Source of the DNA: an uncultured Dehalococcoidia bacterium
Lineage (GTDB): Bacteria > Chloroflexota > Dehalococcoidia > Lucifugimonadales > UBA826
Assembly: GCA_964409595.1 (NCBI GenBank)
Contig: CAYPDR010000022.1
Span: forward strand, 20,399-84,398
Length of the DNA: 64,000 bases
Reading direction: 5' to 3'
This document shows, piece after piece, positions 14,001 to 46,614 of this stretch. The notes beneath the pieces were generated by a model. It was not told the origin of the DNA, searched no databases, and was given only the letters and a program-made list of their open reading frames with translations. Every line of letters begins with the position of its first letter. The first letter of the stretch is position 1. The translations under genes and the position numbers were made by a program.

Positions 14001-14014
14001 GCTTTCGAACTTCA

Positions 14015-21985: not shown

Positions 21986-22032
21986 AGTATTTTGTGTTGA
22001 AAATGCCGGGATTTAGGAGAGCTTGAGTTAGT

Positions 22033-22695: not shown

Positions 22696-22708
22696 GATAA
22701 CTTGCCTC

Positions 22709-25922: not shown

Positions 25923-25927
25923 GGAAC

Positions 25928-26734: not shown

Positions 26735-26754
26735 ATACTAAGGAAAAAATAGGT

Positions 26755-27564: not shown

Positions 27565-28504
27565 ATTGAGAGAATACAAACCACACGGAAGTAAAGAATA
27601 TGCTGTCATTTTGTATCATGGGATTCATGGGCCCGATGTTGATTTAGCTGGTCGTAATAGCTCAGGAAAACATATAAGTGTTTCCGAGTTTAGGAAACAC
27701 ATGGAGATAGTAGCTAATGAGTGGAATTTGGTCACTATGTCCGACATAAGATTGGCCCACCAAGGTGAAATTGAGCTCCCTGAAAGAGCCGTGGCTATCA
27801 CCGTTGATGATGGATTTTCTAACGTTTATCATCAGGCATGGCCAATACTAAAAGACTTAGGTCTCAAGGCAACTTTTTACTTAGCGACCGGATTTATAGG
27901 CACTGGGAGGATGAGCTGGACTGACCAGCTGGAAAGCATGTTGTTGGATTCATCTCTAAAAAATCTAAATGTCAAAGCTTCCGGCCAAAATAAGGAGTTT
28001 GATCTTTCTAATGTGGATAGTAAGGTTGCCACCCTCCAGGATATCAAATCCGTTTATAAGAGGCTTCCCTTCAAAGATGTAGAACAATTATTAGAAGATG
28101 TAAAAAACCAATTAGATTGTGGACCGGATTCAACGCACCAACTTTACGAGATGTTAAATTGGGACCAAGTTAGAGAGATGAATGAGGAAGGAACTTTTGA
28201 TTTTGGGGCCCACACGGTGGACCATATTCCTGTTTCTCGGATCCCGTATGAGGAAATGAAATATCAAGTATCGGCGTCTTTGGAAAAAGTTTCTGACGAA
28301 CTTGATAGTGAGATAAGGGTGTTTTCGTACCCGGAAGGGCAGTCAGACGATTACGATCAGACGTCCATAGACTATCTAAAGTCCATTGGGGTGGATATGT
28401 GTCCGACTGCTATAGAAGGGGTTAACAATTACAAAAAGACAGATCCATTCCACATTAGTAGATGTATGATTGGGTTTGAAGGTAGATCTTTTGTATTAGA
28501 TTAA
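27539..28504 (+). CDS. polysaccharide deacetylase (NodB homology domain)
   Basis: ITVDDGFSNVY (the Asp-Asp motif) and HTVDH (metal His). 26-nt overlap with the upstream gene. Confidence 0.75.
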   Translation: MPAITSGDKLREYKPHGSKEYAVILYHGIHGPDVDLAGRNSSGKHISVSEFRKHMEIVANEWNLVTMSDIRLAHQGEIELPERAVAITVDDGFSNVYHQAWPILKDLGLKATFYLATGFIGTGRMSWTDQLESMLLDSSLKNLNVKASGQNKEFDLSNVDSKVATLQDIKSVYKRLPFKDVEQLLEDVKNQLDCGPDSTHQLYEMLNWDQVREMNEEGTFDFGAHTVDHIPVSRIPYEEMKYQVSASLEKVSDELDSEIRVFSYPEGQSDDYDQTSIDYLKSIGVDMCPTAIEGVNNYKKTDPFHISRCMIGFEGRSFVLD

Positions 28505-28517
28505 AAAAGGACAAACC

Positions 28518-29528
28518 ATGGAACTGTTTGGAAAAGACTTATCAGAGGATGTAGTTATTGTGGCAGAGGTCGGGGTCAACCACGAGGGAAATATCAACAA
28601 GGCATTGGAACTTGTGCACATGGCTGCTGAGTCAGGTGCCGACGCGGTTAAATTTCAAACTTATGAACCCTTCAGGTACGCTAGCACATCAGACATGGAG
28701 CGATTTCAGAGAGTGAGCAGCTTCAGCTTAAGTAACGAGGAATTTGTTTTGCTATCTAAGGAAGCTGAATCTCTGGGGATAGGATTCTTCTCCACTCCGC
28801 TCGACGAATCGTCTGTTCAATTCGTTTCCTCCATCAGCCCTGTGATAAAAATAGCATCCCCAGACATGAATTTTGAACCGACTGTAAGGGCGGCGGCTTC
28901 GACAGGTAAGCCGCTGATAATTTCAACAGGTATGGCACTTCCTGAGGAAATTGATAAGACACTGTCGTGGGTCCAAGATGAGATAGGGTCAGATGTTCCC
29001 TTGAATAGTCGAGTTGTATTGCTTCATTGCGCATCTGCCTACCCTACTCCGATCGAGGAAATCAATTTGTTATCTATTCCATATCTTGCGGAGCGGTATC
29101 CGGTTTATGTTGGCTTCTCGGATCATACTATCGGCCTGGATGCAGCAAGGGCTTCAGTCGCTCTTGGCGCAACTGTTATAGAAAAACATTTCACTGACAA
29201 CAAGGAAGATAGAGATTTCAGGGATCATGAATTGTCGGCTGACCCCGATGATCTGAAAACTCTCGTAGATGATGTCGCTAGGACTAAATTAGCTCTTGGT
29301 GTGAAGGAGAAAACAAGATCTGTGAGTGAAACCCCAAATCTGGTTCCAACTAGAAAAGGTGTTGTTGCTGCTAGTGACTTGCCGGAGGGAAAGATACTTG
29401 AACGAAATGACTTGATGTTTGCTCGGCCCTCTTCTGAAATACCAGCCGAACGTATTAATGAACTGATTGGGAAGACTCTTAAAGTTCCGTTGCAGCGGGG
29501 AAATCTTGTGCCGTCAGACACTCTTTAA
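28518..29528 (+). CDS. NeuB-family nonulosonic acid synthase (copy 1, module A)
   Basis: VAEVGVNHEGN and AVKFQTY, plus a C-terminal SAF-like domain. Length is 336 aa. Confidence 0.85.
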   Translation: MELFGKDLSEDVVIVAEVGVNHEGNINKALELVHMAAESGADAVKFQTYEPFRYASTSDMERFQRVSSFSLSNEEFVLLSKEAESLGIGFFSTPLDESSVQFVSSISPVIKIASPDMNFEPTVRAAASTGKPLIISTGMALPEEIDKTLSWVQDEIGSDVPLNSRVVLLHCASAYPTPIEEINLLSIPYLAERYPVYVGFSDHTIGLDAARASVALGATVIEKHFTDNKEDRDFRDHELSADPDDLKTLVDDVARTKLALGVKEKTRSVSETPNLVPTRKGVVAASDLPEGKILERNDLMFARPSSEIPAERINELIGKTLKVPLQRGNLVPSDTL

Positions 29529-29757
29529 ATTAGGACCTCCGGCGTAGTGTATTACGATTTCAAATCTGTTTGATATGGCTAATCCGCGAACGTGTCAGGT
29601 TATCGGTCGGGCTTTTCAAGTGAGAATTTGTTATAGGTAACTTCGACCAGTTTGTTTGTCCAATTTAGACATAAAAAGACTGGACATATTCTAATCAGAG
29701 ATTACTCACATAATATTTAGTGTTAATCATGGGTGGATATTTTTTGGAAATTTTCAA

Positions 29758-31590
29758 ATGTGTGGAATAGCGGGGTATATTGGTTCCCGGCATTTGCAGG
29801 AAGGGATTCTGCAATTATGCCTAGAGCTAATGCATAGAAGAGGACCGGATCATCAGGGCTATTTCCATGATTCGCCTCGAGAAGGGCGTAACATCTATCT
29901 TCTCAGTAGTAGGCTAAGTATCATTGACTTGGATGCTAGATCGAACCAGCCTTTTTTGATGGGTTCCTCGGCGATCGCGTTTAACGGAGAACTCTACAAC
30001 TACCTTGAAGTAAAAACCCAATTCATATCCAGGGGCCACAAGTTCAGGACTAAATCTGATACGGAAGTAGTTTTGAAGGCGATTAATGAATTAGGTTTGG
30101 ATTCCTTAGACACTTTTGAAGGTATGTTTGCATTCGCATTCTATAATCGTGACACGCATGAATTTTTCTTAGCCAGGGATCGTTTTGGGGAGAAGCCTCT
30201 TTACATTTATAGAGATGAAACCGGGATTTACTTCGGGTCCGAAATAAAATACATAAAAGCTCTATTAGGGAAGCCATTAAAAGTTAACTATGATCACCTT
30301 TATCGATATTTGGTCAACGGATATAAAGCGCTCTACAAGCAGCCCAACACGTTTTTTGTCGGAGTGAGCGAAGTTCCGGCAGCTTCGCTGCTTTCAATAG
30401 ATGAAAATGGAACCGAGACTATTCGCCGATATTGGGAGCCTTCATTTAATCAGAATTGTGACATGAGCTATAAAGAAGCCGTGCAACTAACGAAAGAGAA
30501 GTTGATTCGATCGGTTGAACTAAGGTTGAGGGCAGATGTACCCCTCGCTTTTTGCATGAGTGGCGGAGTCGACTCCAATGCTCTAATTTCGATTGCTAAA
30601 AATGTGTTCGATTACGATGTGCATGGATTCACCGTAACTAATACAGATTCGAGGTACGAGGAACAAGACATGGTCGATCATGCTGTTTCGGAATTAGGTA
30701 TAAAGCACACCTCCGTGCCGGTAACTGTAGACAGATTTATACCGCAGCTAAGAACTCTCGTTAAGCAGCATGATGCACCTGTGTTCACCATTAATTACTA
30801 TGCACATTGGCTACTTATGGAAAAAATCCGAGATTATGGATACCGAATTTCTGTAAGTGGAACGGCAGCCGACGAGCTATTTACCGGATATTATGATCAT
30901 CACCTAGCATATTTGTTTGAGATCAAGAACGACCAAAAGTTATTTACTGATTCCATAAAGGCATGGGAAAAGTATATTAAGCCCATAGTGCGGAATCCCT
31001 ATCTCAACAATCCATATTTGTTTTTAGATAATCCTCAACAAAGAGGGCATATTTTTCTGGATTCGGAGGAATTCGCTAAATATTTGAATACTGACTGGGA
31101 CGAGCCATTCACCGAATCTCATTATACAGACAGTCTGCTAAGAAATCGTATGCTCAATGAGATATTTCACGAAGCTACTCCCATGATTTTGCACGAAGAT
31201 GACCTGAATGCTATGTATTTTTCTATCGAAAACAGGTCTCCCTTCCTTGATAGAGATTTGTTTGAGTTTTGTAACAGTGTCCCTTCCCAATACCTTGTGA
31301 GAAACGGATTTGCCAAAGTATTATTGCGCGACGCTTTGGAAGGCATTGTGCCTAAGAAAATTCTGGCGGAGAGGCGAAAAGTTGGGTTCAATGCTCCGAT
31401 AAGGTCTTTCTTAGATTTGGAAGACATAAATGTTAAGTCAATGTTATTGGATGATAGTCCTATTTATGAACATATCAAAAGAGACAAGATCGAAAAATTG
31501 CTGCTGGAAAAAAACATATCAGAACCTAACAGCAAATTTATTTTTTACTTTCTCTCAAGCAAACTGTTTTTAGAGTTGTTTGATAGTTGA
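29758..31590 (+). CDS. asparagine synthase (glutamine-hydrolysing) family amidotransferase, copy 1
   Basis: MCGIAGY (Ntn Cys2) and PP-loop CMSGGVDSNA. Length is 610 aa. Confidence 0.85.
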   Translation: MCGIAGYIGSRHLQEGILQLCLELMHRRGPDHQGYFHDSPREGRNIYLLSSRLSIIDLDARSNQPFLMGSSAIAFNGELYNYLEVKTQFISRGHKFRTKSDTEVVLKAINELGLDSLDTFEGMFAFAFYNRDTHEFFLARDRFGEKPLYIYRDETGIYFGSEIKYIKALLGKPLKVNYDHLYRYLVNGYKALYKQPNTFFVGVSEVPAASLLSIDENGTETIRRYWEPSFNQNCDMSYKEAVQLTKEKLIRSVELRLRADVPLAFCMSGGVDSNALISIAKNVFDYDVHGFTVTNTDSRYEEQDMVDHAVSELGIKHTSVPVTVDRFIPQLRTLVKQHDAPVFTINYYAHWLLMEKIRDYGYRISVSGTAADELFTGYYDHHLAYLFEIKNDQKLFTDSIKAWEKYIKPIVRNPYLNNPYLFLDNPQQRGHIFLDSEEFAKYLNTDWDEPFTESHYTDSLLRNRMLNEIFHEATPMILHEDDLNAMYFSIENRSPFLDRDLFEFCNSVPSQYLVRNGFAKVLLRDALEGIVPKKILAERRKVGFNAPIRSFLDLEDINVKSMLLDDSPIYEHIKRDKIEKLLLEKNISEPNSKFIFYFLSSKLFLELFDS

Positions 31591-32720
31591 AAACAAACAT
31601 TTCCTATTGCGTCAAATGTATTATTCCCGATACCAGGCCCGGTATCAAAATATACACTGATGGGATTTGTTCAGCTTGCAAGTCTCATGAGCGAAAAGGT
31701 GTTGAGACTGACTGGGAAGTACGCCGGGAAGCGTTTACAACGTTAGTGTCACAGGTAAAAAAGCTAAATCGTGACTATGATTGCGTTATTCCAGTCAGCG
31801 GAGGTAAAGACAGTACTTGGCAGGTAGTAAAATGCCTTGAATACGGATTGCATCCTCTGGCAATTACTTGGAGATCACCTTCCCGTAATGAAGTAGGTGC
31901 ACGCAACTTAGAAAATTTAATTTCTCTTGGCGTTGACCATATTGATTTCTCTATAAATCCTCACGTAGAGAAGAAATTTATGCTTGTGTCGTTGGTTGAA
32001 GCTGGTGACTGTGCAATTCCAATGCATATGGCAATATTCAATATTCCACCTATGATGGCATTGAAAATGAATATACCTTTGATTATATGGGGGGAGAACC
32101 CTGCAGAAGAATATTCTGGTCAATATAAAGACCTGCTAGGGCACAGGCTTGATGAAAAATGGTTTAAAAAATTTGGAGTTACTCAAGGAACAACCGCCTT
32201 GAATTGGGAGTCATCGGAGTTGTCTGCCGAGGAACTTACTCCTTACTTCGGTCCAACTGACGAACAACTTTCCGCAGGCGGTATAAAGGGTGTATTTCTA
32301 GGATACTATTTCGATTGGGATCCAGAAAATAGCCTTGAGATGGCAGAATTAAATGGGTTCGAGAGAAGTTCTAAAGGGCCGAAAACGGGATTTTATAACT
32401 ACGCTGACATAGACGAAGATTTCATATCTATTCACCATTATCTCAAATGGTATAAATTCGGGTTTACTCGATCTTATGACAACCTATCATTGGAGATACG
32501 TAATGGAAGATTGAGACGTGATGAGGCTGTGCAATGGCTATTGGATAGGGGAGATGAAACGCCCCATGAGGACATCGTCAAATTTTGCGATTTTGTTGGC
32601 TTAACGAAGCATGAGTTTTATGAAGTAATCGAACAGCATAGAAATCCGAATATTTGGAAGATCGTCGATAACAAGTGGATGATAGAAGGTTTTCTTATTC
32701 CTGATTGGAGATGGATTTGA
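31587..32720 (+). CDS. N-acetyl sugar amidotransferase (WbuX/PseA-type PP-loop enzyme)
   Basis: The N-terminal Zn-ribbon is YCVKCIIPDTRPGI...GICSACKSH, and the PP-loop is PVSGGKDST. TTG start overlapping the asnB-like stop (TTGA). Confidence 0.8.
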   Translation: MKTNISYCVKCIIPDTRPGIKIYTDGICSACKSHERKGVETDWEVRREAFTTLVSQVKKLNRDYDCVIPVSGGKDSTWQVVKCLEYGLHPLAITWRSPSRNEVGARNLENLISLGVDHIDFSINPHVEKKFMLVSLVEAGDCAIPMHMAIFNIPPMMALKMNIPLIIWGENPAEEYSGQYKDLLGHRLDEKWFKKFGVTQGTTALNWESSELSAEELTPYFGPTDEQLSAGGIKGVFLGYYFDWDPENSLEMAELNGFERSSKGPKTGFYNYADIDEDFISIHHYLKWYKFGFTRSYDNLSLEIRNGRLRRDEAVQWLLDRGDETPHEDIVKFCDFVGLTKHEFYEVIEQHRNPNIWKIVDNKWMIEGFLIPDWRWI

Positions 32721-33097
32721 AACTTGAGGCGAATCAACCACCAAGAAAGTTCAATGTTGGAGGGAAGTTTCCAATTCAACTCTCGGATTGTGGCAAAGTA
32801 ATATTGGAAGCTAATGAATTAGTCACATTAGAACATGAATCTGGTTCATGTTACGACGTTGTTTGTAAAGATTGGGGATTTTATGCAACACCATCTTTAA
32901 ATGGAAGACTCTTAAAATTCAACCTTCGCGCTGTTTTGGTGAGGAATAAGGGAGGTCATTATTTCATCTTGATGGTAGTAGAAGGCAAAGAGCTCGAATT
33001 TCAGAAATATTTGGATTTATCGGACAATGAAATTGTAGCTTGGATGGACTCTGATAAAGCACTTGCAACCGCTCCAACCAATAAGGAAGATTTTTGA
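32705..33097 (+). CDS. hypothetical protein (130 aa)
   Basis: The ORF is translationally overlapped on both sides (with the amidotransferase and the methyltransferase), which argues that it is real. I recognise no motif. An alternative ATG lies at 32711. Confidence 0.5.
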   Translation: MEMDLKLEANQPPRKFNVGGKFPIQLSDCGKVILEANELVTLEHESGSCYDVVCKDWGFYATPSLNGRLLKFNLRAVLVRNKGGHYFILMVVEGKELEFQKYLDLSDNEIVAWMDSDKALATAPTNKEDF

Positions 33098-33918
33098 TTG
33101 AAGATTGTTTGAGATGCCCATGTGAAGGCAGATACTTTGGAGAGTGGCATACATATAGCGCTCCTCCTAAAGGTGAAGGGAATTTTAAGTTTAAGAGTAA
33201 TGGATCTTACTCGAGAACGATTAGCAAATGTGCCGTATGTAGTCATTTTGTATCTGTTCATGAAATGAGTACAGGTTCACTTTATTCTGGTGACTATGTT
33301 AACGCTAACTATGGAGGTATAGAGGGTATAAAGAAGTCATTCGAGAGAATTGTCAATATGGATTCCTCTAAATCAGACAACTATTGGAGAGTTGAGCGGG
33401 TTTGCCAATTTGGCGAAAGAAACTTTCCGACCGAATCTAATAACAGATCAATTCTTGACGTTGGTTCGGGACTTTGTGTGTTCCTTCACGGTATGAAGCA
33501 ACGCGGCTGGAATTGCACTGCTTTGGACCCCGATAAAAGATCCGTGGAGCACGCACGAGACTATGTAGGGGTTAATGCCGTTCGCGCTGACTTTATGACT
33601 GTTGAAAATCTTGGTCGTTACGATGTAATCGCCTTCAATAAGGTTCTTGAGCACGTAGACGATCCGGTGAACATGCTTTCGAAATCTTTAAATTTATTGA
33701 ATCCGAATGGGTTTATATACTGTGAGGTTCCGGATGGTGAAACCGCCGCCGGGATATCGCCGGCAAGAGAGGAATTTTTCATAGAACATCCTCACATATT
33801 CAGTGCTGCATCGTTGATGCTTATGGTTTATCGGGCAGGGTTAATTGTTAAAGACTTTCAACGTATCACTGAACCGAGTGGTAAACACAGCTTAATTACA
33901 TTTATGACTTTGACTTGA
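33094..33918 (+). CDS. class I SAM-dependent methyltransferase with N-terminal Cys-rich (zinc-ribbon-like) segment
   Basis: CLRCPCEG...CAVCSH, then SAM motif I ILDVGSGLCVF and the post-I/II block DVIAFNKVLEHVDDP. Confidence 0.8.
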   Translation: MIEDCLRCPCEGRYFGEWHTYSAPPKGEGNFKFKSNGSYSRTISKCAVCSHFVSVHEMSTGSLYSGDYVNANYGGIEGIKKSFERIVNMDSSKSDNYWRVERVCQFGERNFPTESNNRSILDVGSGLCVFLHGMKQRGWNCTALDPDKRSVEHARDYVGVNAVRADFMTVENLGRYDVIAFNKVLEHVDDPVNMLSKSLNLLNPNGFIYCEVPDGETAAGISPAREEFFIEHPHIFSAASLMLMVYRAGLIVKDFQRITEPSGKHSLITFMTLT

Positions 33919-34279: not shown

Positions 34280-35740
34280 ATGAAAAATAAAAGTCCGCGA
34301 ATATTATTCCAAGTTAAAGCACCAATACGCCAGATTGCAGAGACACTTAAGAATAAACAGGGCTGGGAAATTTATGGTTACTACGGCGGTCCCATATCCG
34401 ATCATGCTGTAAACGAATGTTCGGGAACTCTAAACTTATATGAAATTATTGAGCGCTCTAAACTTTCCCAGGTGCCAGAAAACATCATTGCCAAATGCCG
34501 AGAATTAGAAGACGAATATGACATTAACCTAGCAGACGTGATAGCTGCTGACCGCCACCTAGGTATTAGATGGGTAACTGGGGGTTTGTATCATCCAGGA
34601 AAGTTATCCAGGATGCCATACGAAAAACATCTTCAAATAATATTAGATGTTTTTACCGCTTTCAGAAAGTATTTAGACCAAATAAATCCGACAATAGTGT
34701 GTTCAGATCAAGTAGCGTCGTTTGTGGGTGCTATCTCATTTGAGATATGTAGAAAAATGGGAATTCCCATTTACGGTGTTATGCCCCTTGGAATCTATGA
34801 GAATTATTTTTATTGGCAAAGAGATAGGGCGGCAATTGTTCCAGGGCTAGAGGAAAATTATCTGAGTCAGAGATTGTCACAAGCTGATTGTGATAGTACG
34901 AGGGCAGAAATAGTTTTGGATGGGAGAGTTAGAGGAGTTACGCAGCTTACTTTGCAAAAAGGTAACTTATTTGATTTGCTTAAGAAGGTAGTGAGGATAA
35001 CAAAAAAACACCTTATTGTAACGCTAGCAAGGGGGGATCGGGCTCCAGGGGGTATCAACCTTTCAAATAGGCTGACCTATTTGCTCCGGAATTTTTTGGG
35101 ATTCCGGAAAGAAATGAGGCGAAAGTACGAACCCGTGGAGAAATTATTGAACTCAAGTTATATCTATTACCCATTGCACTACGAACCGGAGGCCTCTCTA
35201 AACGGATTAGAACCTCATTTCTCTAATCAAATGTATGCTATTGAGCTTCTCTCAAGGAGTGTGCCCGTAGGGATCAACGTTCTGGTTAAGGAACATCCCT
35301 CCGGAATTGGAAACAGACCGTCGTATTGGATCGACATTATTGAGAAATTCCCAAGAGTGAAACTTGTCCATCCCCTCGAAAATTCTATTGACTTGATTAA
35401 GCATTCCATCGCTACCGCTACTATTACTGGGACATCGGGATTTGAGGCGGCCCTTCTTGGGAAGCCGGTTATTAGCCTAGGTCCCAACTACAGATACAAC
35501 TTTATCAACTATGTTACGTACGCAAATGACATTAATAGCTTAAGAAAGTTGATTAAAGATATATGCAACGATGAACACCTCCTTGATTTGAAGAAGAATG
35601 CCGCCCATTTGAGAAAAGCAGTTGAAATGACATGTTTTAGGTTAGATGATCGGCTAGATGATCGGATCTCTTTTGCCAGGAATCCGTCTCAGGAATCTGT
35701 TGAAATAGCAGCCGATGAGCTTTTGAAATTGGTAGTGTAA
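34280..35740 (+). CDS. capsule polysaccharide biosynthesis family protein (PF05159; KpsS/KpsC/LpsZ-like glycosyltransferase)
   Basis: YYPLHYEPEASLN...VLVKEHPSGIGNRP...TITGTSGFEAALLGKPVISLG is colinear with the KpsS pattern PLQ..D.Q...KHHP...TINST.G.EALL.GKPV as I recall it. Confidence 0.7.
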   Translation: MKNKSPRILFQVKAPIRQIAETLKNKQGWEIYGYYGGPISDHAVNECSGTLNLYEIIERSKLSQVPENIIAKCRELEDEYDINLADVIAADRHLGIRWVTGGLYHPGKLSRMPYEKHLQIILDVFTAFRKYLDQINPTIVCSDQVASFVGAISFEICRKMGIPIYGVMPLGIYENYFYWQRDRAAIVPGLEENYLSQRLSQADCDSTRAEIVLDGRVRGVTQLTLQKGNLFDLLKKVVRITKKHLIVTLARGDRAPGGINLSNRLTYLLRNFLGFRKEMRRKYEPVEKLLNSSYIYYPLHYEPEASLNGLEPHFSNQMYAIELLSRSVPVGINVLVKEHPSGIGNRPSYWIDIIEKFPRVKLVHPLENSIDLIKHSIATATITGTSGFEAALLGKPVISLGPNYRYNFINYVTYANDINSLRKLIKDICNDEHLLDLKKNAAHLRKAVEMTCFRLDDRLDDRISFARNPSQESVEIAADELLKLVV

Positions 35741-35899: not shown

Positions 35900-36868
35900 T
35901 TGAATTTAAATAATAAGACCTTAATGTTGACCGGAGGAACTGGTTCTTTCGGATGGAAATTCGTTGAAATAGTTCTTGAACACTATTCTCCAAAGAAGCT
36001 AATCGTTTTCAGCAGAGACGAATTAAAACAAAGCGACATGAGTAATAAATTCCAGGGATCGGCCCTCCGTTATTTCATCGGAGATGTTCGCGATAAGGAT
36101 AGACTGCAGAGAGCTATGGACGGGGTTGACTATGTTATTCATGCCGCTGCATTGAAGCAGGTACCTGCATGTGAATACAATCCTATGGAAGCAGTTAAAA
36201 CCAACGTTTTTGGGGCCCAAAACGTTATAGATGCTGCTATCGATCAAGGAGTGAAGAAAGTCGTTGCGCTAAGCACGGATAAGGCGGTAAATCCAGTAAA
36301 CCTTTACGGGGCCACAAAATTATGTGCAGAAAAACTGTTCATTCAAGCTAATGCCTATTCCGGCAGGGAGGGAACAAGGTTTAGTTGTGTCAGATACGGA
36401 AATGTGGCAGGTAGTAGAGGTAGTGTGATTCCAGTTTTCGAGAGTCAAAGAGAAGAGGGAGTCTTGACTATTACCGACAAAAGGATGACAAGATTTTGGA
36501 TTACCTTAGGTCAAGGAGTTAATTTCGTGATTTCTTGCCTTTCTGATATGCAAGGCGGGGAGGTGTTTATTCCAAAAATCCCGAGTATGAAAATAGTTGA
36601 TCTTGCATCCGCAATCGCTCCCGGCTGCGAGTTTAATTTTGTAGGCATTAGGTCAGGTGAGAAACTTCACGAAGTTTTGATATCTAAGGATGAATCCCGC
36701 ACGGTTCTGGAAGTAGGTGATAAATACGTCATTTGTCCACCCCACCCGTGGTTCGCCCAACCCCATTACCCTCAAGGGAGATTGGTGGAGGAGGAATTTG
36801 AATATCGAAGCGATAATAACGATCAGTGGATTTCCGCTTCAGAGTTCGATAGATTAAATCTCTCATAA
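35900..36868 (+). CDS. pseB: UDP-N-acetylglucosamine 4,6-dehydratase (inverting), PseB/FlaA1
   Basis: LTGGTGSFG, SRDELKQ, FIGDVRD, NLYGATKLCAEKLF, RYGNVAGSRGSVIPVF, RMTRFWIT and IPKIPSMKI. It is nearly colinear with Helicobacter FlaA1 as I recall it. Confidence 0.92.
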   Translation: MNLNNKTLMLTGGTGSFGWKFVEIVLEHYSPKKLIVFSRDELKQSDMSNKFQGSALRYFIGDVRDKDRLQRAMDGVDYVIHAAALKQVPACEYNPMEAVKTNVFGAQNVIDAAIDQGVKKVVALSTDKAVNPVNLYGATKLCAEKLFIQANAYSGREGTRFSCVRYGNVAGSRGSVIPVFESQREEGVLTITDKRMTRFWITLGQGVNFVISCLSDMQGGEVFIPKIPSMKIVDLASAIAPGCEFNFVGIRSGEKLHEVLISKDESRTVLEVGDKYVICPPHPWFAQPHYPQGRLVEEEFEYRSDNNDQWISASEFDRLNLS

Positions 36869-36904
36869 ATATTCTTAAACTAATATGCAATTAAAGTTGA
36901 CCAG

Positions 36905-38098
36905 GTGATAACTTCTGACCTAGCGATAAACGGTGGGAAGCCTGTACGTGAGTCAATGTTGCCCTACGGGCGCCACTTCCTCGACGATCATGATCTAGAC
37001 TCCGTGCTGGAAGTTTTGAAGTCTGATTGGCTGACCACAGGACCCAAAGTTAGGGAATTTGAAAAGGCACTTTGTTTTCGTACAGATGCCAAATACGCAG
37101 TTGCCGTGAACAGTGGTACGGCGGCACTACATTCAGCGATGTACGCTTTGAACATTACACCAGGAGATGAAGTTATAGTGCCTGCTATGACCTTCGCAGC
37201 CACCGCAAATTGTGTTCTGTACCAAGGGGGTACCCCAGTATTTTCCGATGTACGACGCGAAACCTTGCTTATAAACACTGAAAGTATGGAATCGCTAATA
37301 ACATCGCGTACCAAGGCCGTTATTTCAGTTGACTATGCTGGGCAACCTTGTGACTACGATGTTTTAAGAAATATATGCGATAAGTACGGGCTGATACTCG
37401 TGGCAGATTCGTGCCACTCCTTAGGGGGGACATATAAAGGTCGAGCTGTTGGTTCCGTTGCTGATATTAACGCGTTCTCATTCCATCCAGTCAAACACGT
37501 GGCAGCCGGAGAAGGTGGAGCAATTACTACTGATAACGAATCGATTTACAATCGAATAAGAGCTTTTAGGAATCATGGTATACAAACTGACCATCATCAA
37601 AGAAGCGTGGAAGGTGCCTACAAGTATGATGTATCAGATCTAGGTTTTAATTACCGAATTCCCGACATAAATTGTGCTTTAGCGCTAAGTCAGCTCGAAA
37701 AGCTAGAGAAATCCGTTGCTAGGAGACAGGCGATTGCAAAAATATATGACTCAGCGTTTCACTCAATGGATTGTATTACACCCCTTAATCAGGTCCCTGA
37801 CGTTGACAACGCCTACCATCTCTATGTGATAGGGCTATCTAAGGAGTTTCCGAAATTTGACAGGGACTACTTATTCAAAGCCCTGCGTGCTGAAAACATA
37901 GGGGTTAACGTGCATTATTTGCCTGTATATTTGCACCCTTATTACAGAAAATTAGGGTATGACGAAGGGATTTGCCCCACCGCTGAGGATGTCTATAAGA
38001 ACATTATTAGCTTACCGATATTTCCGAGTATGGATGAAAAAGACATTGCCGATGTATTGGAAGCCGTTACAAAAATTGTGGGCTCCCACAACAACTAA
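36905..38098 (+). CDS. pseC: UDP-4-amino-4,6-dideoxy-N-acetyl-beta-L-altrosamine transaminase, PseC-like
   Basis: DegT family with FSFHPVKHVAAGEGG (PLP Lys) and SVDYAGQP. It lies directly downstream of pseB. Confidence 0.85.
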   Translation: MITSDLAINGGKPVRESMLPYGRHFLDDHDLDSVLEVLKSDWLTTGPKVREFEKALCFRTDAKYAVAVNSGTAALHSAMYALNITPGDEVIVPAMTFAATANCVLYQGGTPVFSDVRRETLLINTESMESLITSRTKAVISVDYAGQPCDYDVLRNICDKYGLILVADSCHSLGGTYKGRAVGSVADINAFSFHPVKHVAAGEGGAITTDNESIYNRIRAFRNHGIQTDHHQRSVEGAYKYDVSDLGFNYRIPDINCALALSQLEKLEKSVARRQAIAKIYDSAFHSMDCITPLNQVPDVDNAYHLYVIGLSKEFPKFDRDYLFKALRAENIGVNVHYLPVYLHPYYRKLGYDEGICPTAEDVYKNIISLPIFPSMDEKDIADVLEAVTKIVGSHNN

Positions 38099-38247
38099 TA
38101 TTTTTTGAAAATTCTCAATTCTGTTAATAGTTTGTTTCACGCTCAAAGAGCTTGGGCCCAATCATTAATTCCAGTATCGATAAATGGTCTATTGATCATT
38201 CAATTTTATGGTTCCCTAAGTCATCATAAATTCAGTGAGACTCTTCT

Positions 38248-40065
38248 ATGTGTGGAATAGCAGGAATATACAGCTTCAACGGCAGAGAAATTAGAAACCT
38301 CGAGGAAAGGATCGGTCAGATGACTAATTATCTGGTCCATAGAGGTCCAGATGGCCGTGGGATTTATGTGGATCCGAAAATGCAATTCGCTTTGAGTAAT
38401 ACGAGACTAGCCATAAGCGACCCAATTTCTACTTTACAACAACCTCTAACGGACGTTACTAATGACTCATTTTTGACATTCAACGGGGAGATATTCAACG
38501 ATCTGGAACTTCGTGAAGATTTGATTTCTTCCGGGCGACGTTTCAGGTCGAATCAAGATACAGAGATTCTGTTACAAGGGATGGTTGCAGAAGGCGAGCC
38601 GTTTCTTCAGAAAATTGATGGTATGTGGGCCTTCGCATTTTACGATGGCGTAGATAAAAGCCTACTCTTGTCCCGTGACTTGCTTGGTGAAAGACAGTTG
38701 TTTTACAAGCTATACGAAACTGAAATAGTTTTTGCTTCAGAAGTTCCTCCGTTGCTTGCAGATTCCGATATGAAGAATGAGCTCGATTTTCAACAAGTTT
38801 TACATAGTCTTAGACTTGGGGTTCCTGAACCAGGACATACTTTGATAGGGGATATTCGCAAGTTAAATGCAGGTCATAACTTGAAAGTCAATCAAAATGG
38901 TGAGTGGAAAGAATATAGGCACACCCGTTTACATCCAGAGAAATGGCTAGATTACTTTCAATCCAATCCTGATTTAGATAGTGTCGTAGCAAATTTCAAT
39001 GACATTTTTTTCAAATCCTGCTTACGCCGGGTTCCAAGAGATGTCCCATTTATGTCAACTTTGAGCGGAGGGTTAGATAGCGCTTTAGTCAGCATAAATT
39101 CCTCTGGTTTTGGGAAACGAAAAATTGACACTATTTTTGGTTGGTCGTACAGCACTGAAAGCCAAGATATGCCTTTTGAACTGTCCGAACGGGCAGCGAG
39201 TTACGTGACCTCAGATTTTATTGGGTCTAAACACCATGAAGTTCAACTTGATACAGAGGAATCTATTGAAGTGCTGGAGGGAGTAGCTTCCAATTCATAT
39301 GATGGTATGTTGGAAGAGGCAACGGCTCCGTTTGAGATGCTCGCGAGATATGGGAACAAGTTCGGAAAAAAAGTAATGCTTCTAAGCGATGGGCCGGATG
39401 AACTACTCGGTGGATATCCGGGGGATGCGCGCCATTATCTTAACAATAGCGAATATTGCGGCTGGGAGAACTTTAGCTTTATTCCCAATCATCAAACCAA
39501 TGCCCCAAGTGTTCTCGGAGAGTTGTTTGAAGGCTACGACTATAAAGACTATGGAATTAAATTTGGAAGGATACACCCAGATTACTCAGTAATCGGTGAC
39601 CAGCTGGATGTTTCTCAATTAATGGCCTTGTCTTACGCGTCATATACGATCCCAGACTATAACAATTTGAGGACAGACAGAGGGTTTATGCGGGCCAGCG
39701 TAGAATGCAGATCACCGTTTCTGGCGCCAGAAATGGTGGAGTTTATGGTGGCAATGCCGGGGGATCTGCGATTTGGGGATGGCCGTTCCACAAAATGGCT
39801 GATGCGGCGAATAATAGGTGATATTTTGGGGGACAAAATTGCTAAGAGAACGAAACATGGATTTAGTGAGCCCCTCTGGTTTGCACCGGCGATTTCAAAA
39901 GCGCTTCAGTTCGAAGAGGTCCTCAATAGCTCACCGTTACTGAATCTAATGCCTTTTTCAAAAAAATTTCTAGATGCCCCTTTTGCTTCCCCTTTTCACA
40001 AAATAAGGTGGTCAATTTTTTCTCTCACAAAAATGCATCATAATCTTACTAATTGTCGTTTCTGA
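38248..40065 (+). CDS. asparagine synthase family amidotransferase, copy 2
   Basis: MCGIAGIY and PP-loop TLSGGLDSAL. Length is 605 aa. Confidence 0.85.
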   Translation: MCGIAGIYSFNGREIRNLEERIGQMTNYLVHRGPDGRGIYVDPKMQFALSNTRLAISDPISTLQQPLTDVTNDSFLTFNGEIFNDLELREDLISSGRRFRSNQDTEILLQGMVAEGEPFLQKIDGMWAFAFYDGVDKSLLLSRDLLGERQLFYKLYETEIVFASEVPPLLADSDMKNELDFQQVLHSLRLGVPEPGHTLIGDIRKLNAGHNLKVNQNGEWKEYRHTRLHPEKWLDYFQSNPDLDSVVANFNDIFFKSCLRRVPRDVPFMSTLSGGLDSALVSINSSGFGKRKIDTIFGWSYSTESQDMPFELSERAASYVTSDFIGSKHHEVQLDTEESIEVLEGVASNSYDGMLEEATAPFEMLARYGNKFGKKVMLLSDGPDELLGGYPGDARHYLNNSEYCGWENFSFIPNHQTNAPSVLGELFEGYDYKDYGIKFGRIHPDYSVIGDQLDVSQLMALSYASYTIPDYNNLRTDRGFMRASVECRSPFLAPEMVEFMVAMPGDLRFGDGRSTKWLMRRIIGDILGDKIAKRTKHGFSEPLWFAPAISKALQFEEVLNSSPLLNLMPFSKKFLDAPFASPFHKIRWSIFSLTKMHHNLTNCRF

Positions 40066-40081
40066 TGTTTAGCAGGGATCT

Positions 40082-41113
40082 GTGTATAAATCAGAGTCGA
40101 TGGACTGTCAGATGAAGAATATCTCAGTGTTAGTTTCAGGCTATGGCTCTATGGGTAGAAGACATGTGGAGAATCTACTACGTTTGGGAATAGATCAGGT
40201 ATACGTTTGCGATATTGACGAGAGTCGCGTGGCCAAGGCAGATATTGACAAGCGATTGAAGGCATTCTCATCTTTAGAAAGTGCGATTGAACAAGTGACT
40301 CCCATAGCTGTGATAGTGTGCACTCCACCTAATCTACATGTGGACCAAGCCTTGGTTGCCTTGTCTCGCGGTGCTCACGTATTTATAGAAAAGCCCCTGT
40401 CGAACTCACTGGACAAGGTAGATATGTTGACAGAAAAAGCCTGCTCAGAATCCAAAGTTGTTCAAGTTGGATATAACTGGAGGTTCCACGAAGGGCTACA
40501 AAAGATAAACTGTCTACTTAGTAAACAAGAGATAGGCAAAGTCCTGTCAGTCAGGTCAGAATTCGGTCAATACTTACCGGACTGGAGACCTTGGCAAGAT
40601 TATAGACAAAGTTATACGGCAAAATCTTCTATGGGAGGTGGAATTATTTTAGACGCGTCCCACGAGATAGATTATTTGAGATGGTTTCTTGGAGAAATAG
40701 GCCAAGTTTATTGTTGGTCAGGCATCCAGAGTGACTTGAATGTAGATGCAGAAGACACAGCTTCGATGATATTCCGTTTTGAGTCGGGTTGCGTTGGTGA
40801 ACTACATTTGGACTTCATTCAAAGGACGAAATCCAGAAATTGCAAGATTGTAGGTAGCGAGGGCACGATATTTTGGGACAATAATGACCAAGAAGTAAAT
40901 GTTTTCACATCCTTTGAAAGCAGTTGGCGGAAATTTGATGTTTCATCAGATACTAACCAAAAATACTTAAAGGAAATGGCTTCTTTTTTAGATTGCATAG
41001 CTACAGGTCGTGAGCCTGTAGTGGGCGTCGCATCGGCTCGTAGAACCCTGGAGGTTGCGTTGGCATGCCAAAAATCTTCTCAATTAGGTACTTCTATCAA
41101 ACTGCCACTATAG
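40082..41113 (+). CDS. Gfo/Idh/MocA family oxidoreductase, module B
   Basis: VSGYGSMGRRH and FIEKPL. Alternative ATG starts lie at 40100 and 40112. Confidence 0.8.
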   Translation: MYKSESMDCQMKNISVLVSGYGSMGRRHVENLLRLGIDQVYVCDIDESRVAKADIDKRLKAFSSLESAIEQVTPIAVIVCTPPNLHVDQALVALSRGAHVFIEKPLSNSLDKVDMLTEKACSESKVVQVGYNWRFHEGLQKINCLLSKQEIGKVLSVRSEFGQYLPDWRPWQDYRQSYTAKSSMGGGIILDASHEIDYLRWFLGEIGQVYCWSGIQSDLNVDAEDTASMIFRFESGCVGELHLDFIQRTKSRNCKIVGSEGTIFWDNNDQEVNVFTSFESSWRKFDVSSDTNQKYLKEMASFLDCIATGREPVVGVASARRTLEVALACQKSSQLGTSIKLPL

Positions 41114-41174
41114 ATGAATTGACTATGCTCGAGTTATTTTCTGAAGGTTCTGGTATTTAATTGAAACTATTTCT

Positions 41175-41741
41175 ATGATGTCACAAAAAAGGATTAGTGG
41201 AGAACGGTTGGACTTAGCAGTTTTTAGCAACGTTTACATCACCAAAGATTATCTCGGATGGATTAATGATCCTGAAGTGACTGAATATTTGGAAGTAGGA
41301 AATACAACTCAAACAATGGGGTCATTAAAGGAATACACAGAAAAATTTAATGATGAGAATAACTATATGTTTGCCATAATTGCCAAACCGGAGGATATAC
41401 ACATAGGGAATGTAACTCTTCAGAATATCGACTGGTTTCACAAATATGGTACTGAGGGGATCATGATAGGCAGAAGGGATTATTGGGGCAAGGGATACGC
41501 GACAGAGGCAAGAAGAATGATGCTACGATTCGCGTTTTTTGATCTAGGATTGAATAAAGTGGTATCGGGTGCTTTCGCAGATAATCTTGCTGGCATTAAG
41601 AGTAACGCGAAACTTGGGTATCAAAGGGAAGGATTATTGAGGAAGCAGAAGCTACTAAACGGCCAGTATAGGGATGAGGTGCGGCAAGGGTTACTCAAGG
41701 AAGAGTTCATATTGAATGACGAACGAAACAAATCTTTGTAA
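41175..41741 (+). CDS. GNAT N-acetyltransferase (RimJ/RimL-like)
   Basis: YWGKGYATEARRMMLRFAF is a typical GNAT motif A region. Length is 188 aa. Confidence 0.75.
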   Translation: MMSQKRISGERLDLAVFSNVYITKDYLGWINDPEVTEYLEVGNTTQTMGSLKEYTEKFNDENNYMFAIIAKPEDIHIGNVTLQNIDWFHKYGTEGIMIGRRDYWGKGYATEARRMMLRFAFFDLGLNKVVSGAFADNLAGIKSNAKLGYQREGLLRKQKLLNGQYRDEVRQGLLKEEFILNDERNKSL

Positions 41742-41855
41742 TTGATGCTTAATATCCAAAGTTTTATGGTCAATTGGACGGGCTTCATAAGTTTAATGAA
41801 CTGGTTTTGATTAATAAATATTGTTTGTTTTTCGTAAGGATTCAGTGAAATCACG

Positions 41856-43928: not shown

Positions 43929-43951
43929 AAATTTGCCAGTTGTCATGTTAA

Positions 43952-44437: not shown

Positions 44438-44463
44438 AAATAATTCCAAGAGTGGGGATATAA

Positions 44464-45492: not shown

Positions 45493-45506
45493 CATGAAGC
45501 AAGAAT

Positions 45507-46565: not shown

Positions 46566-46614
46566 GGACAGATCTATTGAACTGTAGTTATACAAGTGTT
46601 CATGATAGTTATTC

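What the first reader, a model, noticed from the sequence alone, without database searches (positions are those of the whole stretch)
34280..35740. KpsS/KpsC-family (PF05159) enzyme wedged between the two NulO modules: candidate CMP-nonulosonate transferase
The protein carries the PF05159 signature pattern (YPLHYEPEASLN ... KEHP ... TGTSGFEAALLGKPV). Characterised members of this family (KpsS and KpsC) are beta-Kdo transferases that use CMP-Kdo. I recognised no Kdo synthesis genes (kdsA/kdsB) in this window, whereas two CMP-activating enzymes for 9-carbon keto-sugar acids flank the gene. By analogy, this enzyme may transfer a CMP-activated NulO, possibly onto a lipid or glycan primer. That would extend the known donor range of the family.
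Basis: inference. Interest (0 to 1): 0.6.

Follow-up and report, generated by a model that had tools for sequence, protein, structure and literature searches.

The report
KpsS1-like nonulosonic acid glycosyltransferase gene
This gene most likely encodes an enzyme that attaches a sialic-acid-like nine-carbon sugar (pseudaminic/legionaminic type) to a cell-surface glycan in an uncultured marine Chloroflexota bacterium; that this enzyme class uses such sugars was predicted in 2014-15 and shown biochemically in 2024, so the reading is sound but not new.

Summary
ORF 34280-35740 (+, 486 aa) carries the quoted motifs. It passes the Pfam PF05159 gathering score (24.4 vs 20 bits), but only over residues 328-403.

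The interpretation as a CMP-nonulosonate (NulO) transferase is well supported:
- The protein's family is a full-length homologue of Acinetobacter baumannii KpsS1, the biochemically proven Pse5Ac7Ac transferase that founded GT118 (hhalign E 4e-47, 451 columns).
- Its profile scores KpsS1 at 161 bits, against 7-30 bits for E. coli KpsS and KpsC.
- 37 of 39 related genome loci with full 10-kb flanks carry a NeuB-type synthase or a CMP-synthetase. KdsA or KpsF appear in only 2 of 59 loci.
- The host is a marine Dehalococcoidia/SAR202-like Chloroflexota, a lineage not expected to make Kdo.

The claim that this "would extend the known donor range" is outdated (Kenyon 2014-15; Tomek 2017; Walklett 2024).

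What is mildly new is the lineage. It is a large, unannotated sister group of GT118. It has H-x-E-P-E where Kdo transferases have QxxxD. It lacks KpsS1's proposed base Glu132. The target's own subclade has also lost a conserved Arg. Donor, acceptor and stereochemistry remain untested.

Verdict: new member of a known kind. Interest 0.3.

The parts
34280..35740 (+). The gene: a 486-aa soluble GT-B-fold protein, a KpsS1-like (GT118-related) candidate CMP-nonulosonate glycosyltransferase
   Evidence: ORF; PF05159 24.4 bits; NF046086/TIGR04396 weak hits; AF2 model pLDDT 91.3, pTM 0.90 with two Rossmann-like halves; hhalign to the KpsS1 family E 4e-47 over 451 columns
34550..34555 (+). D91-R92, an N-domain pair invariant in all 82 family members; aligns with D90-R91 of KpsS1
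35168..35203 (+). YPLHYEPEASLN motif. H300 aligns with Q156 and E304 with the Asp160 nucleophile of the KpsC-N QxxxD motif. E304 is invariant (82/82), H300 is 76/82, E302 is 74/82
35288..35299 (+). K337-E338-H339-P340, equivalent to the 'HP' motif of KpsC/WbbB/sialyltransferases (CMP phosphate contact). K337 is invariant. H339 is His in 18/18 of the close clade but only 24/64 of the rest
35420..35470 (+). TITGTSGFEAALLGKPV nucleotide-binding motif (T381, T383, G384, E389, P396 conserved); aligns with TVNSTAGYEALLLGKPV of KpsS1 and VVTSQYGFEALLAGKPV of KpsC
33094..33918 (+). Class-I SAM methyltransferase directly upstream. A methyltransferase gene sits in the same position next to homologues in four other loci
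21101..32720 (+). NulO module 1: SDR, CMP-NulO synthetase (22033-22695), Gfo/Idh/MocA, DegT aminotransferase, 4,6-dehydratase-like SDR, GNAT, formyltransferase-like, polysaccharide deacetylase, NeuB-type synthase (28518-29528), AsnB, WbuX amidotransferase
35900..47322 (+). NulO module 2 (Pse-type): PseB (513 bits), PseC (458 bits), AsnB-like, Gfo/Idh/MocA, GNAT, CTP_transf_3 + class-III aminotransferase fusion (41856-43928), GNAT, NeuB/PseI-type synthase (44464-45492), ATP-grasp, PIG-L deacetylase
   Evidence: synteny with L087
49040..50830 (+). Fused ABC exporter (PglK/MsbA/HepA-like), probable flippase/exporter of the lipid-linked glycan. A homologue lies near the GT in 35 of 85 loci
13907..14617 (+). 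Polyprenyl-phosphate sugar-phosphate transferase (initiating enzyme of the lipid-linked glycan)
14661..16682 (-). Wzy_C / O-antigen-ligase-like membrane protein, candidate for the final transfer of the glycan to its acceptor
47765..48979 (+). First of a series of GT4 glycosyltransferases (also 51994, 53349, 54552, 57063, 60141, 61451) that would build the acceptor oligosaccharide

Best explanation
The gene encodes a cytoplasmic, soluble GT-B-fold glycosyltransferase. It takes a CMP-activated 5,7-diamino-3,5,7,9-tetradeoxy-nonulosonic acid made by the flanking modules and adds it to a sugar of a polyprenyl-diphosphate-linked oligosaccharide. The donor is most likely the Pse-type product of the pseB/pseC module that starts 160 bp downstream.

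The oligosaccharide would be started by the phosphoglycosyltransferase at 13907 and built by the GT4 enzymes. The finished glycan would then be exported by the PglK/MsbA-like ABC transporter at 49040. The Wzy_C ligase-like protein at 14661 (- strand) would attach it to a cell-envelope acceptor.

The enzyme belongs to the retaining ulosonic-acid transferase superfamily (GT99/GT107/GT118/GT140) and is closest to KpsS1 (GT118).

Proposed chemistry, inferred by homology and not shown here:
- The C-terminal domain binds CMP through K337-E338-H339, T381/T383/G384 and E389.
- H339 assists departure of the CMP phosphate.
- The invariant E304 occupies the position of the Asp nucleophile of KpsC/WbbB. 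It either forms a covalent glycosyl-enzyme intermediate or otherwise stabilises the oxocarbenium, giving net retention of anomeric configuration.
- The general base is not KpsS1's Glu132, which is absent here. It is more likely E302, E77 or D91.

Shown here: homology, motif conservation, gene context, fold class. Inferred: donor identity, acceptor, stereochemistry, residue roles.
For: Homology to a proven NulO transferase:
- BLASTP to the A. baumannii K-locus KpsS1-type protein (L082:13116-14558) gives 33% identity over 170 aa, E 2e-21. The two proteins are collinear: 486 vs 480 aa, with the motif at residue 297 vs 296.
- I identified that protein as KpsS1-type from three things: its position after pseBCFGHI-wzx in a K locus, its Y131-E132 as described for KpsS1, and an A. 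baumannii paralogue at 51% identity, the value reported for KpsS2.
- Profile-profile comparison of the two families gives probability 100%, E 4e-47, 451 columns, residues 13-486 vs 11-479.
- The window-family HMM scores KpsS1 160.9 bits, against KpsC-N 30.2, KpsS 20.1 and KpsC-C 6.7.
- The best NCBIfam hit is NF046086, the family of the knock-out-validated Tannerella Pse/Leg-derivative transferases.

Gene context:
- Of 59 related loci at least 12 kb long, 40 have a NeuB homologue, 47 a CMP-synthetase, 53 one or the other, and only 2 have KdsA or KpsF. With full 10-kb flanks, 37 of 39 have NeuB or a CMP-synthetase.
- Four of four close-clade members examined lie inside NulO clusters. One of them is syntenic with the window's module 2.
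- The Mariluticola plasmid shows pseBCF-pseG-neuB, a methyltransferase, then the homologue.

Motifs and fold:
- E304, K337, G384, D91 and R92 are invariant in 82 sequences.
- hhalign puts H300 opposite Q156 and E304 opposite D160 of KpsC-N (residue roles from PMC10148158).
- The AF2 model is confident (pLDDT 91.3) with two alpha/beta halves. Its PDB matches are GT-B enzymes.

Host: a marine Chloroflexota. From general knowledge this lineage is monoderm and lacks LPS, so CMP-Kdo is unlikely to be available.
Against: - No activity, donor or acceptor has been measured for any member of this lineage.
- Identity to KpsS1 is low: 17% over the profile alignment and 33% over the C-terminal 170 aa.
- KpsS1's invariant Glu132 (the proposed base) aligns with D143, a position that is not conserved in the family (G31, C13, Y12 of 82).
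- KpsS1's invariant H301 is E302 here. KpsS1's invariant R160 corresponds to G171 and is missing throughout the target's close clade.
- The window has two complete NulO modules but only one such transferase, so it is unclear which product is transferred.
- Foldseek's top 50 PDB matches are generic GT-B enzymes (NeuC, MnaA, CalG) with low TM-scores (0.25-0.32), not KpsC or WbbB.
- The PF05159 and NCBIfam hits are marginal.
Confidence: 0.78

Rival explanations
1. It is the missing nucleotide-sugar hydrolase (or hydrolysing 2-epimerase) of the NulO pathway. In this reading it is a functional substitute for PseG/LegG/NeuC, which are also GT-B-fold proteins, and not a transferase.
For: The window has PseB, PseC, two NeuB-type synthases and two CMP-synthetases. 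It has no PseG, LegG or NeuC homologue by phmmer, NCBIfam or Pfam. The top Foldseek PDB hits are NeuC and other UDP-GlcNAc 2-epimerases. 19 of 24 PseB-containing related loci lack a detectable PseG.
Against: The closest characterised homologue, KpsS1, is a proven transferase. It coexists with its own PseG in the K locus. The Mariluticola locus and the close-clade locus L088 both have a separate PseG (PF04101) as well as the homologue. 29 of 40 NeuB-containing loci carry a PseG/NeuC-like gene in addition to the homologue. The conserved motifs match the CMP-binding HP/T-x-G-x-E motifs of KpsC and KpsS1, not the UDP-binding motifs of epimerases. The Foldseek TM-scores are only 0.25-0.32.
Confidence: 0.07
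2. It is a genuine beta-Kdo transferase of the KpsS/KpsC type (GT107) that uses CMP-Kdo made elsewhere in the genome, for example to lay down a Kdo linker on a lipid primer.
For: It passes the PF05159 gathering score. The best PDB sequence matches are KpsC, then WbbB. The HP histidine is present. kdsA and kdsB are normally not in capsule loci, so their absence from the window is weak evidence on its own.
Against: Similarity to KpsS and KpsC is limited to 40-74 residues and 7-30 bits, against 161 bits for KpsS1. The invariant QxxxD motif is H-Y-E-P-E here. KdsA or KpsF occur in only 2 of 59 related loci, against 53 with NulO genes. There are no KpsM/T/E/D-type export genes in the window. GT107 separates from this family in the NJ tree with 91% bootstrap support. 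The host is a Chloroflexota, a lineage not known to make LPS or Kdo (general knowledge).
Confidence: 0.03
3. It is a GT-B transferase for some other activated donor, for example a TagB/TagF-like CDP-glycerol/ribitol phosphotransferase or a transferase of an NDP-hexose. It would sit in NulO loci only because those loci are large glycan clusters.
For: The Tannerella enzymes of NF046086 were described as containing a TagB-like domain. The generic GT-B fold matches. All family hits are far below trusted cutoffs.
Against: The association is specific to NulO synthesis genes and not to glycan clusters in general. GT4 genes were found by the same probe approach in only 4 of 59 loci, against 40 for NeuB. 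Full-length homology to KpsS1 is far stronger than to anything else. The gene is often immediately adjacent to pseB or to neuB/CMP-synthetase genes.
Confidence: 0.04

Closest known systems
KpsS1 of Acinetobacter baumannii KL2 (founder of CAZy GT118; retaining Pse5Ac7Ac pseudaminyltransferase), with its relatives KpsS2 and Gtr59
   Same: Same length and collinear architecture (486 vs 480 aa). Full-length profile homology (E 4e-47). Shared conserved residues: D91/R92 = D90/R91, H300 = H299, P303-E304 = P302-E303, K337 = K336, H339 = H338, E389 = E388. The gene sits beside a pse module in a surface-polysaccharide locus.
   Different: Only 17% identity over the profile alignment and 30% over the C-terminal domain. 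KpsS1's invariant Glu132 (YE motif, the proposed base) has no conserved counterpart. H301 is replaced by E302. R160 is missing in the target's clade. The window family forms its own group apart from the sampled KpsS1 family: NJ bootstrap 58% for the window family and 81% for the KpsS1 family. The locus uses an ABC exporter, and I found no Wzx flippase among the ORFs scanned. The host is Chloroflexota, not Gammaproteobacteria.
KpsS and KpsC (GT107) and WbbB (GT99): retaining beta-Kdo transferases using CMP-Kdo
   Same: Same superfamily. They share the C-terminal CMP-binding domain with the K-x-H-P and T/S-x-x-G-F-E-A-x-L-x-G-K-P-V motifs. An acidic residue lies at the nucleophile position, 38-39 residues upstream of the His.
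   Different: QxxxD is replaced by H-x-E-P-E, so Glu takes the place of Asp. The sequence match covers only 40-74 residues. The N-terminal domain is about 140 residues longer. The context is NulO genes, not Kdo genes. None of the Foldseek top-50 PDB matches is KpsC or WbbB.
Tannerella forsythia Tanf_01245 / TFUB4_00887 / BFO_1060 (NCBIfam NF046086): Pse- and Leg-derivative transferases of the S-layer O-glycan
   Same: This is the best NCBIfam hit (35.6 bits, residues 332-453 vs profile positions 221-346). It has an HP-containing C-terminal domain. It has the same kind of role, adding a highly modified NulO (for example with an acetamidino group) to a surface glycan. The window also encodes a WbuX amidotransferase.
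   Different: The score is far below the family cutoff (200 bits), and only the C-terminal domain matches. The Tannerella proteins are about 365 positions long with a different N-terminal half.
TIGR04396 'surface carbohydrate biosynthesis protein'
   Same: Weak match to the same C-terminal region (25.5 bits, residues 332-439).
   Different: Far below the cutoff of 125 bits, so it is not a member.

Membership tests
Pfam PF05159 Capsule_synth | Score at or above the Pfam gathering threshold (20 bits) | tested here: met
   24.4 bits, E 2.5e-5, but only residues 328-403 vs profile positions 184-264 of 310. For comparison, KpsS1_Ab scores 53.5 bits and the Mariluticola homologue 44.8.
GT107 (KpsS/KpsC beta-Kdo transferases) | Invariant QxxxD motif with an Asp nucleophile | tested here: not met
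   The aligned positions are H300-Y-E-P-E304, with H at the Q position and E at the D position. E304 is invariant in the family.
GT107 (KpsS/KpsC beta-Kdo transferases) | HP motif (His contacting the CMP phosphate) | tested here: met
   K337-E338-H339-P340 aligns with VKVHP of KpsC. His is present in 18/18 of the close clade and 24/64 of the rest.
GT107 (KpsS/KpsC beta-Kdo transferases) | Sequence similarity across the whole GT module | tested here: not met
   HMM and BLAST matches are confined to 40-74 residues: 30.2, 20.1 and 6.7 bits for KpsC-N, KpsS and KpsC-C. GT107 is a separate group in the NJ tree with 91% bootstrap support.
GT107 (KpsS/KpsC beta-Kdo transferases) | Association with CMP-Kdo supply and kps-type export genes | tested here: not met
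   There is no KdsA or KpsF in the window. KdsA or KpsF occur in 2 of 59 related loci. No KpsMTED-like genes were found.
GT118 (KpsS1-type NulO transferases) | Significant full-length similarity to the founding member KpsS1 | tested here: met
   hhalign probability 100%, E 4e-47, 451 columns. HMM 160.9 bits. BLASTP E 2e-21. Whether CAZy would place it in GT118 or in a new family cannot be decided here.
GT118 (KpsS1-type NulO transferases) | Residues invariant in the KpsS1 family: R91, H299, P302, E303, K336, H338, E388 | tested here: met
   All are conserved as R92, H300, P303, E304, K337, H339 and E389.
GT118 (KpsS1-type NulO transferases) | Glu132 of the YE motif (proposed general base), H301 and R160, all invariant in the KpsS1 family | tested here: not met
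   E132 aligns with D143, a non-conserved column. H301 is E302. R160 is G171, absent in 18/18 of the close clade.
GT118 (KpsS1-type NulO transferases) | Gene adjacent to a NulO biosynthesis module | tested here: met
   Window. Related loci: 53 of 59. Close clade: 4 of 4.
GT118 (KpsS1-type NulO transferases) | Retaining transfer from CMP-Pse to a glycan acceptor | not testable with these tools
   Needs an enzyme assay and NMR of the product.
NCBIfam NF046086 (BFO_1060 family, Tannerella NulO transferases) | Score at or above the curated cutoff (200 bits) | tested here: not met
   35.6 bits, C-terminal domain only.
NCBIfam TIGR04396 surface carbohydrate biosynthesis protein | Score at or above the curated cutoff (125 bits) | tested here: not met
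   25.5 bits.
PseG / LegG / NeuC nucleotide-sugar hydrolases | Sequence membership (TIGR03590, PF04101, PF02350) | tested here: not met
   No such hit at E <= 1 in Pfam or NCBIfam. phmmer with two PseG sequences and E. coli NeuC finds nothing in the window. The only resemblance is a generic GT-B fold match.

The most novel reading that the evidence does not exclude
The window protein's lineage (thousands of unannotated sequences in Chloroflexota, Planctomycetota, Alphaproteobacteria, CPR bacteria and archaea) may be a distinct glycosyltransferase family and not part of GT118. In that reading its catalytic base has moved from KpsS1's Glu132 to E302, E77 or D91. In loci like this one, with two complete NulO modules and a single transferase, one enzyme would either accept two different CMP-NulO donors or join one NulO to another.
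Probability: 0.15. Interest if true: 0.5.

Novelty: new member of a known kind. Interest (0 to 1): 0.3.

Why it matters
Nonulosonic acids decorate bacterial and archaeal surfaces and govern recognition by hosts and phages, yet very few of the enzymes that attach them are known. This gene adds a well-supported candidate from an uncultured marine Chloroflexota.

More usefully, it flags a large, nearly unannotated sister lineage of GT118: 4,984 cluster representatives at E <= 1e-30. Its residues differ from KpsS1 at the proposed catalytic base. Two cultured carriers, Agaricicola taiwanensis and Kiloniella sp., make it experimentally accessible. It could supply new enzymes for the chemo-enzymatic synthesis of Pse/Leg glycoconjugates.

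It does not change the concept. The idea that KpsS-like enzymes use CMP-NulO donors is already established.

Tried and rejected
- Foldseek against the PDB returned only generic GT-B enzymes with low TM-scores. I treat this as fold class only.
- The primary KpsS1 paper (Walklett 2024) is not held. Its content is taken second-hand from PMC12887879.
I recovered a KpsS1-type protein from an A. baumannii chromosome that is filed as a 'plasmid'. I inferred its identity from locus position, the Y131-E132 motif and the 51% paralogue. This is an inference, not an accession match.
Taxonomy instead comes from named DapL homologues.
- The promoter/terminator scan around the gene gave counts equal to the shuffled expectation. 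I draw no operon inference from it.
- The first NJ run was invalid because of a NaN in the Kimura distance. I repeated it with a capped distance. Deep branching support is still only moderate (58%).
- I tested ORF 50852 (370 aa, no family) as a possible second NulO transferase. It co-occurs with the homologue in only 1 of 85 loci, so I rejected it as a general partner.
- I considered and down-weighted the hydrolase hypothesis, the Kdo-transferase hypothesis and the generic-GT hypothesis (see the rival explanations).
Full report
**Observation.**
The ORF is exactly as reported: 34280..35740, + strand, ATG start, 486 aa. It contains YPLHYEPEASLN (residues 297-308), KEHP (337-340) and TGTSGFEAALLGKPV (383-397).

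A real profile search hits Pfam PF05159 (Capsule_synth) above the gathering score (24.4 vs 20 bits, E 2.5e-5). The match covers only residues 328-403, about a quarter of the profile. In NCBIfam the best hits are NF046086 'BFO_1060 family glycosyltransferase' (35.6 bits, cutoff 200) and TIGR04396 (25.5 bits, cutoff 125). Both match the C-terminal domain only and both are far below their cutoffs.

**Locus.**
The gene lies in a large, co-directional surface-glycan locus.
- Upstream are a polyprenyl-phosphate sugar-phosphate transferase (13907), a Wzy_C/O-antigen-ligase-like protein (14661, - strand), MarR-EPS and RfaH/UpxY-like regulators, and two NDP-sugar dehydrogenases.
- NulO module 1 follows (21101-32720). 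It has an SDR, a PF02348 cytidylyltransferase, Gfo/Idh/MocA, a DegT aminotransferase, a dehydratase-like SDR, a GNAT, a formyltransferase-like protein, a deacetylase, a NeuB-type synthase, AsnB and a WbuX amidotransferase. After it come a 130-aa ORF and a methyltransferase (33094).
- Downstream of the target is NulO module 2. It has PseB (513 bits), PseC (458 bits), an AsnB-like protein, Gfo/Idh/MocA, a GNAT, a CTP_transf_3 + class-III aminotransferase fusion, a second GNAT, a NeuB/PseI-type synthase, an ATP-grasp protein and a PIG-L deacetylase.
- After that come GT4 enzymes, a fused PglK/MsbA-like ABC exporter (49040), and further GT4, AsnB and SDR genes.

The first 6.7 kb are housekeeping genes (apgM, tpiA, miaA, dapF, dapL, hflX). 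The named relatives of DapL at 76-83% identity are Chloroflexota, Dehalococcoidia and SAR202-cluster MAGs from marine samples. The target's own closest genome hits are also Dehalococcoidia. From general knowledge this lineage is monoderm and lacks LPS, so CMP-Kdo is unlikely to be available.

**What is already known.**
- Kenyon and colleagues assigned PF05159-type proteins adjacent to NulO modules as transferases for Pse, acinetaminic acid and 8-epilegionaminic acid. The examples were KpsS1, KpsS2 and Gtr59, plus cases in E. coli O108/O165, Photobacterium, Bacteroides and Sphingobium (PMC4487303).
- KpsS1 was then characterised as a retaining Pse5Ac7Ac transferase and made the founder of GT118. 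Its proposed base is Glu132, in a YE motif (Walklett 2024, as summarised in PMC12887879; the primary paper is not held).
- The NF046086 family is named after the Tannerella forsythia enzymes. Knock-out, complementation and nucleotide-sugar pool analysis showed them to be strain-specific Pse- and Leg-derivative transferases (PMC5420450).
- So the statement that a NulO donor 'would extend the known donor range of the family' is no longer true.

**Relationship to KpsS1 and to KpsS/KpsC.**
A tblastn search of the plasmid collection hit an A. baumannii chromosome-sized record. It contains a classic K locus: wzc-wzb-wza, gna, six pse genes, wzx, a 480-aa ORF, then wzy. That ORF has three features that identify it as KpsS1-type:
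- Y131-E132.
- An A. baumannii paralogue at 51% identity, the value reported for KpsS2.
- An E. coli relative at 53%.

The comparison with the target gives:
- BLASTP: 33% identity over 170 residues, E 2e-21, motif at residue 297 vs 296.
- Profile-profile, 82-sequence window family against 25-sequence KpsS1 family: probability 100%, E 4e-47, 451 columns, essentially end to end.

I retrieved genuine E. coli KpsC and KpsS from the UTI89 kps cluster. The window-family HMM scores KpsS1 at 160.9 bits, KpsC-N at 30.2, KpsS at 20.1 and KpsC-C at 6.7. Against the PDB, the family profile finds KpsC (E 2e-6), then WbbB (E 2e-3), over about 50-75 residues.

A neighbour-joining tree on 122 C-terminal columns (69 taxa, 100 bootstraps) supports these groups:
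- the target's close clade: 85%
- the KpsS1 family: 81%
- KpsS + KpsC-N + KpsC-C: 91%
- the whole window family: 58%, a weaker result (the first run was invalid for deep nodes)

Mean identities in that region are 40% to the wider family, 30% to the KpsS1 family and 20% to GT107.

**Catalytic-site comparison.**
In KpsC-N the nucleophile is Asp160 of QxxxD, the base is Glu66, and a His of the HP motif acts on the CMP phosphate (PMC10148158).
- hhalign puts H300 opposite Q156 and E304 opposite D160. The spacing to the HP histidine is 39 vs 38 residues.
- E304 is invariant in both the window family (82/82) and the KpsS1 family (E303, 25/25).
- D91-R92, K337, G384 and E389 are likewise conserved in both families.

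The differences from KpsS1 are:
- Glu132 aligns with a non-conserved column (D143 in the target; G, C or Y elsewhere).
- The invariant H301 of KpsS1 is E302 here (74/82 Glu, 6 Asp).
- In the target's close clade (18 sequences, 39-63% identity), the Arg equivalent to KpsS1 R160 is absent. It is present in 59/64 of the wider family.
- The HP histidine is always kept in the close clade, but is Thr in 35/64 of the others.

These differences suggest a relocated general base. This is an inference. Base relocation within this superfamily is discussed in PMC12887879.

**Fold.**

**Guilt by association.**
A scan of one genome per species found at least 561 relatives, and I kept 79 loci. I probed their six-frame ORFs with the window's own NulO proteins and with reference proteins from E. 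coli, A. baumannii and Mariluticola.

| Feature within the locus | 59 loci ≥ 12 kb |
|---|---|
| NeuB-type synthase | 40 |
| CMP-synthetase | 47 |
| NeuB or CMP-synthetase | 53 |
| KdsA or KpsF | 2 |

- With full 10-kb flanks, 37 of 39 loci have NeuB or a CMP-synthetase.
- A random 20-kb genome segment would be expected to contain a NeuB gene in about 1-2% of cases. This is an estimate from typical copy number, not a computed control.
- In the Dehalococcoidia loci L003 and L004 the order WbuX, homologue, pseB, pseC matches the window. In Agaricicola taiwanensis (L021) and Kiloniella sp. (L039) the homologue is again flanked by two NeuB-containing modules.
- Four close-clade members examined with precomputed Pfam annotation all lie inside NulO clusters. 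P0012's locus reproduces the window's module 2, including the cytidylyltransferase-aminotransferase fusion.
- A Mariluticola plasmid shows pseB-pseC-pseF-PIG-L-pseG-neuB, a methyltransferase, the homologue, then GT4 and asnB.

**Rivals.**
- Hydrolase. The window lacks any PseG, LegG or NeuC-type hydrolase, so the target could in principle be that enzyme. But 29 of 40 NeuB-containing loci, the KL2-type locus, the Mariluticola locus and the close-clade locus L088 all have a separate hydrolase alongside the homologue.
- Kdo transferase. The scores, the motif, the gene context and the host all argue against it.
- Generic GT in a big glycan cluster. The association is specific to NulO genes, and the homology to KpsS1 is full-length.

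**Family size.**
A profile search of 1.84 billion cluster representatives finds 11,614 proteins at E <= 1e-3, 8,983 at E <= 1e-10 and 4,984 at E <= 1e-30. The weaker matches will include KpsS1-like and KpsS/KpsC proteins. The lineage is large, spans many phyla including archaea and CPR bacteria, and is mostly labelled 'hypothetical' or 'capsular biosynthesis protein'.

**Conclusion.**
The gene is best explained as a KpsS1-like CMP-nonulosonate glycosyltransferase acting on a lipid-linked glycan (confidence about 0.78). Retention via E304 is a reasonable but untested sub-claim.

It is a new member of a known kind: a divergent sister lineage of GT118. It does not extend what the superfamily is known to do.

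Open points are which of the two NulO products it transfers, the acceptor, the identity of the base, and the missing pathway hydrolase.

Noticed in passing
window 33094-33918; L083 8858-9529; L086 6968-7714; L087 8168-8929; L088 7664-9004: A class-I SAM methyltransferase gene sits directly or almost directly upstream of the KpsS1-like gene in the window and in four other loci. This looks like a conserved methyltransferase-transferase pair of unknown role. By sequence the methyltransferases are divergent: phmmer with the window methyltransferase finds only 2 loci.
   Followed up: partly
window 21101-47322: There are two complete NulO modules (each with a dehydratase, aminotransferase, acyltransferase, NeuB-type synthase and CMP-synthetase). 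No PseG, LegG or NeuC-type nucleotide-sugar hydrolase was detected anywhere in the 64 kb, and there is only one KpsS1-like transferase. The hydrolase step and the transferase for the second NulO are unaccounted for.
   Followed up: partly
window 41856-43928; L087 15013-17067: A 690-aa fusion of a CMP-NulO-type cytidylyltransferase (PF02348) with a class-III aminotransferase (GSA-aminomutase-like). It recurs as a 684-aa protein in a syntenic locus. The aminotransferase part also appears in L050, L072 and L089. It may be an enzyme that activates and also modifies the NulO.
   Followed up: partly
window 50852-51964: A 370-aa soluble ORF between the ABC exporter and a GT4 gene. It has no Pfam or NCBIfam hit. 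Its C-terminus (GWGEIAYRDFEIFISGAALLKP) resembles GT-B/exostosin-like glycosyltransferases. A homologue sits next to the ABC exporter in L010 only.
   Followed up: partly
window 14661-16682 (-) and 11723-13033 (+): A 673-aa Wzy_C/O-antigen-ligase-like protein and a PMT_2-like membrane protein in what appears to be a monoderm Chloroflexota. They may be oligosaccharyltransferases for protein (S-layer) O-glycosylation rather than LPS ligases.
   Followed up: no
window 29758-31590, 38248-40065, 58250-60157 and 31587-32720: Three AsnB-type amidotransferase paralogues plus a WbuX amidotransferase in one locus. This suggests heavy amidation or acetamidino modification of the sugars. WbuX homologues occur in 25 of 59 related loci.
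   Followed up: partly
L003 9965-11473: The closest species-representative homologue (Dehalococcoidia MAG, 52% identity) is split into two adjacent ORFs. It is either a pseudogene or an assembly error.
   Followed up: no
window 1-64000: Almost all genes are on the + strand, and GC skew is positive in every 2-kb window (cumulative skew rises monotonically). The window therefore lies within a single replichore with strong strand bias. GC dips to about 40% across 30-36 kb and 48-52 kb, against about 44% elsewhere.
   Followed up: no
L082 (NZ_CP077849.1): A 3.66-Mb A. baumannii chromosome is filed in the plasmid collection as 'plasmid pDETAB15' with almost no annotation. This made a KpsS1-type sequence retrievable, but it is a mislabelled database record.
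   Followed up: yes
window 33919-34279: A 361-bp non-coding gap lies upstream of the target, long for this tightly packed locus. It shows no promoter or terminator signal above chance and no ORF of note.
   Followed up: partly
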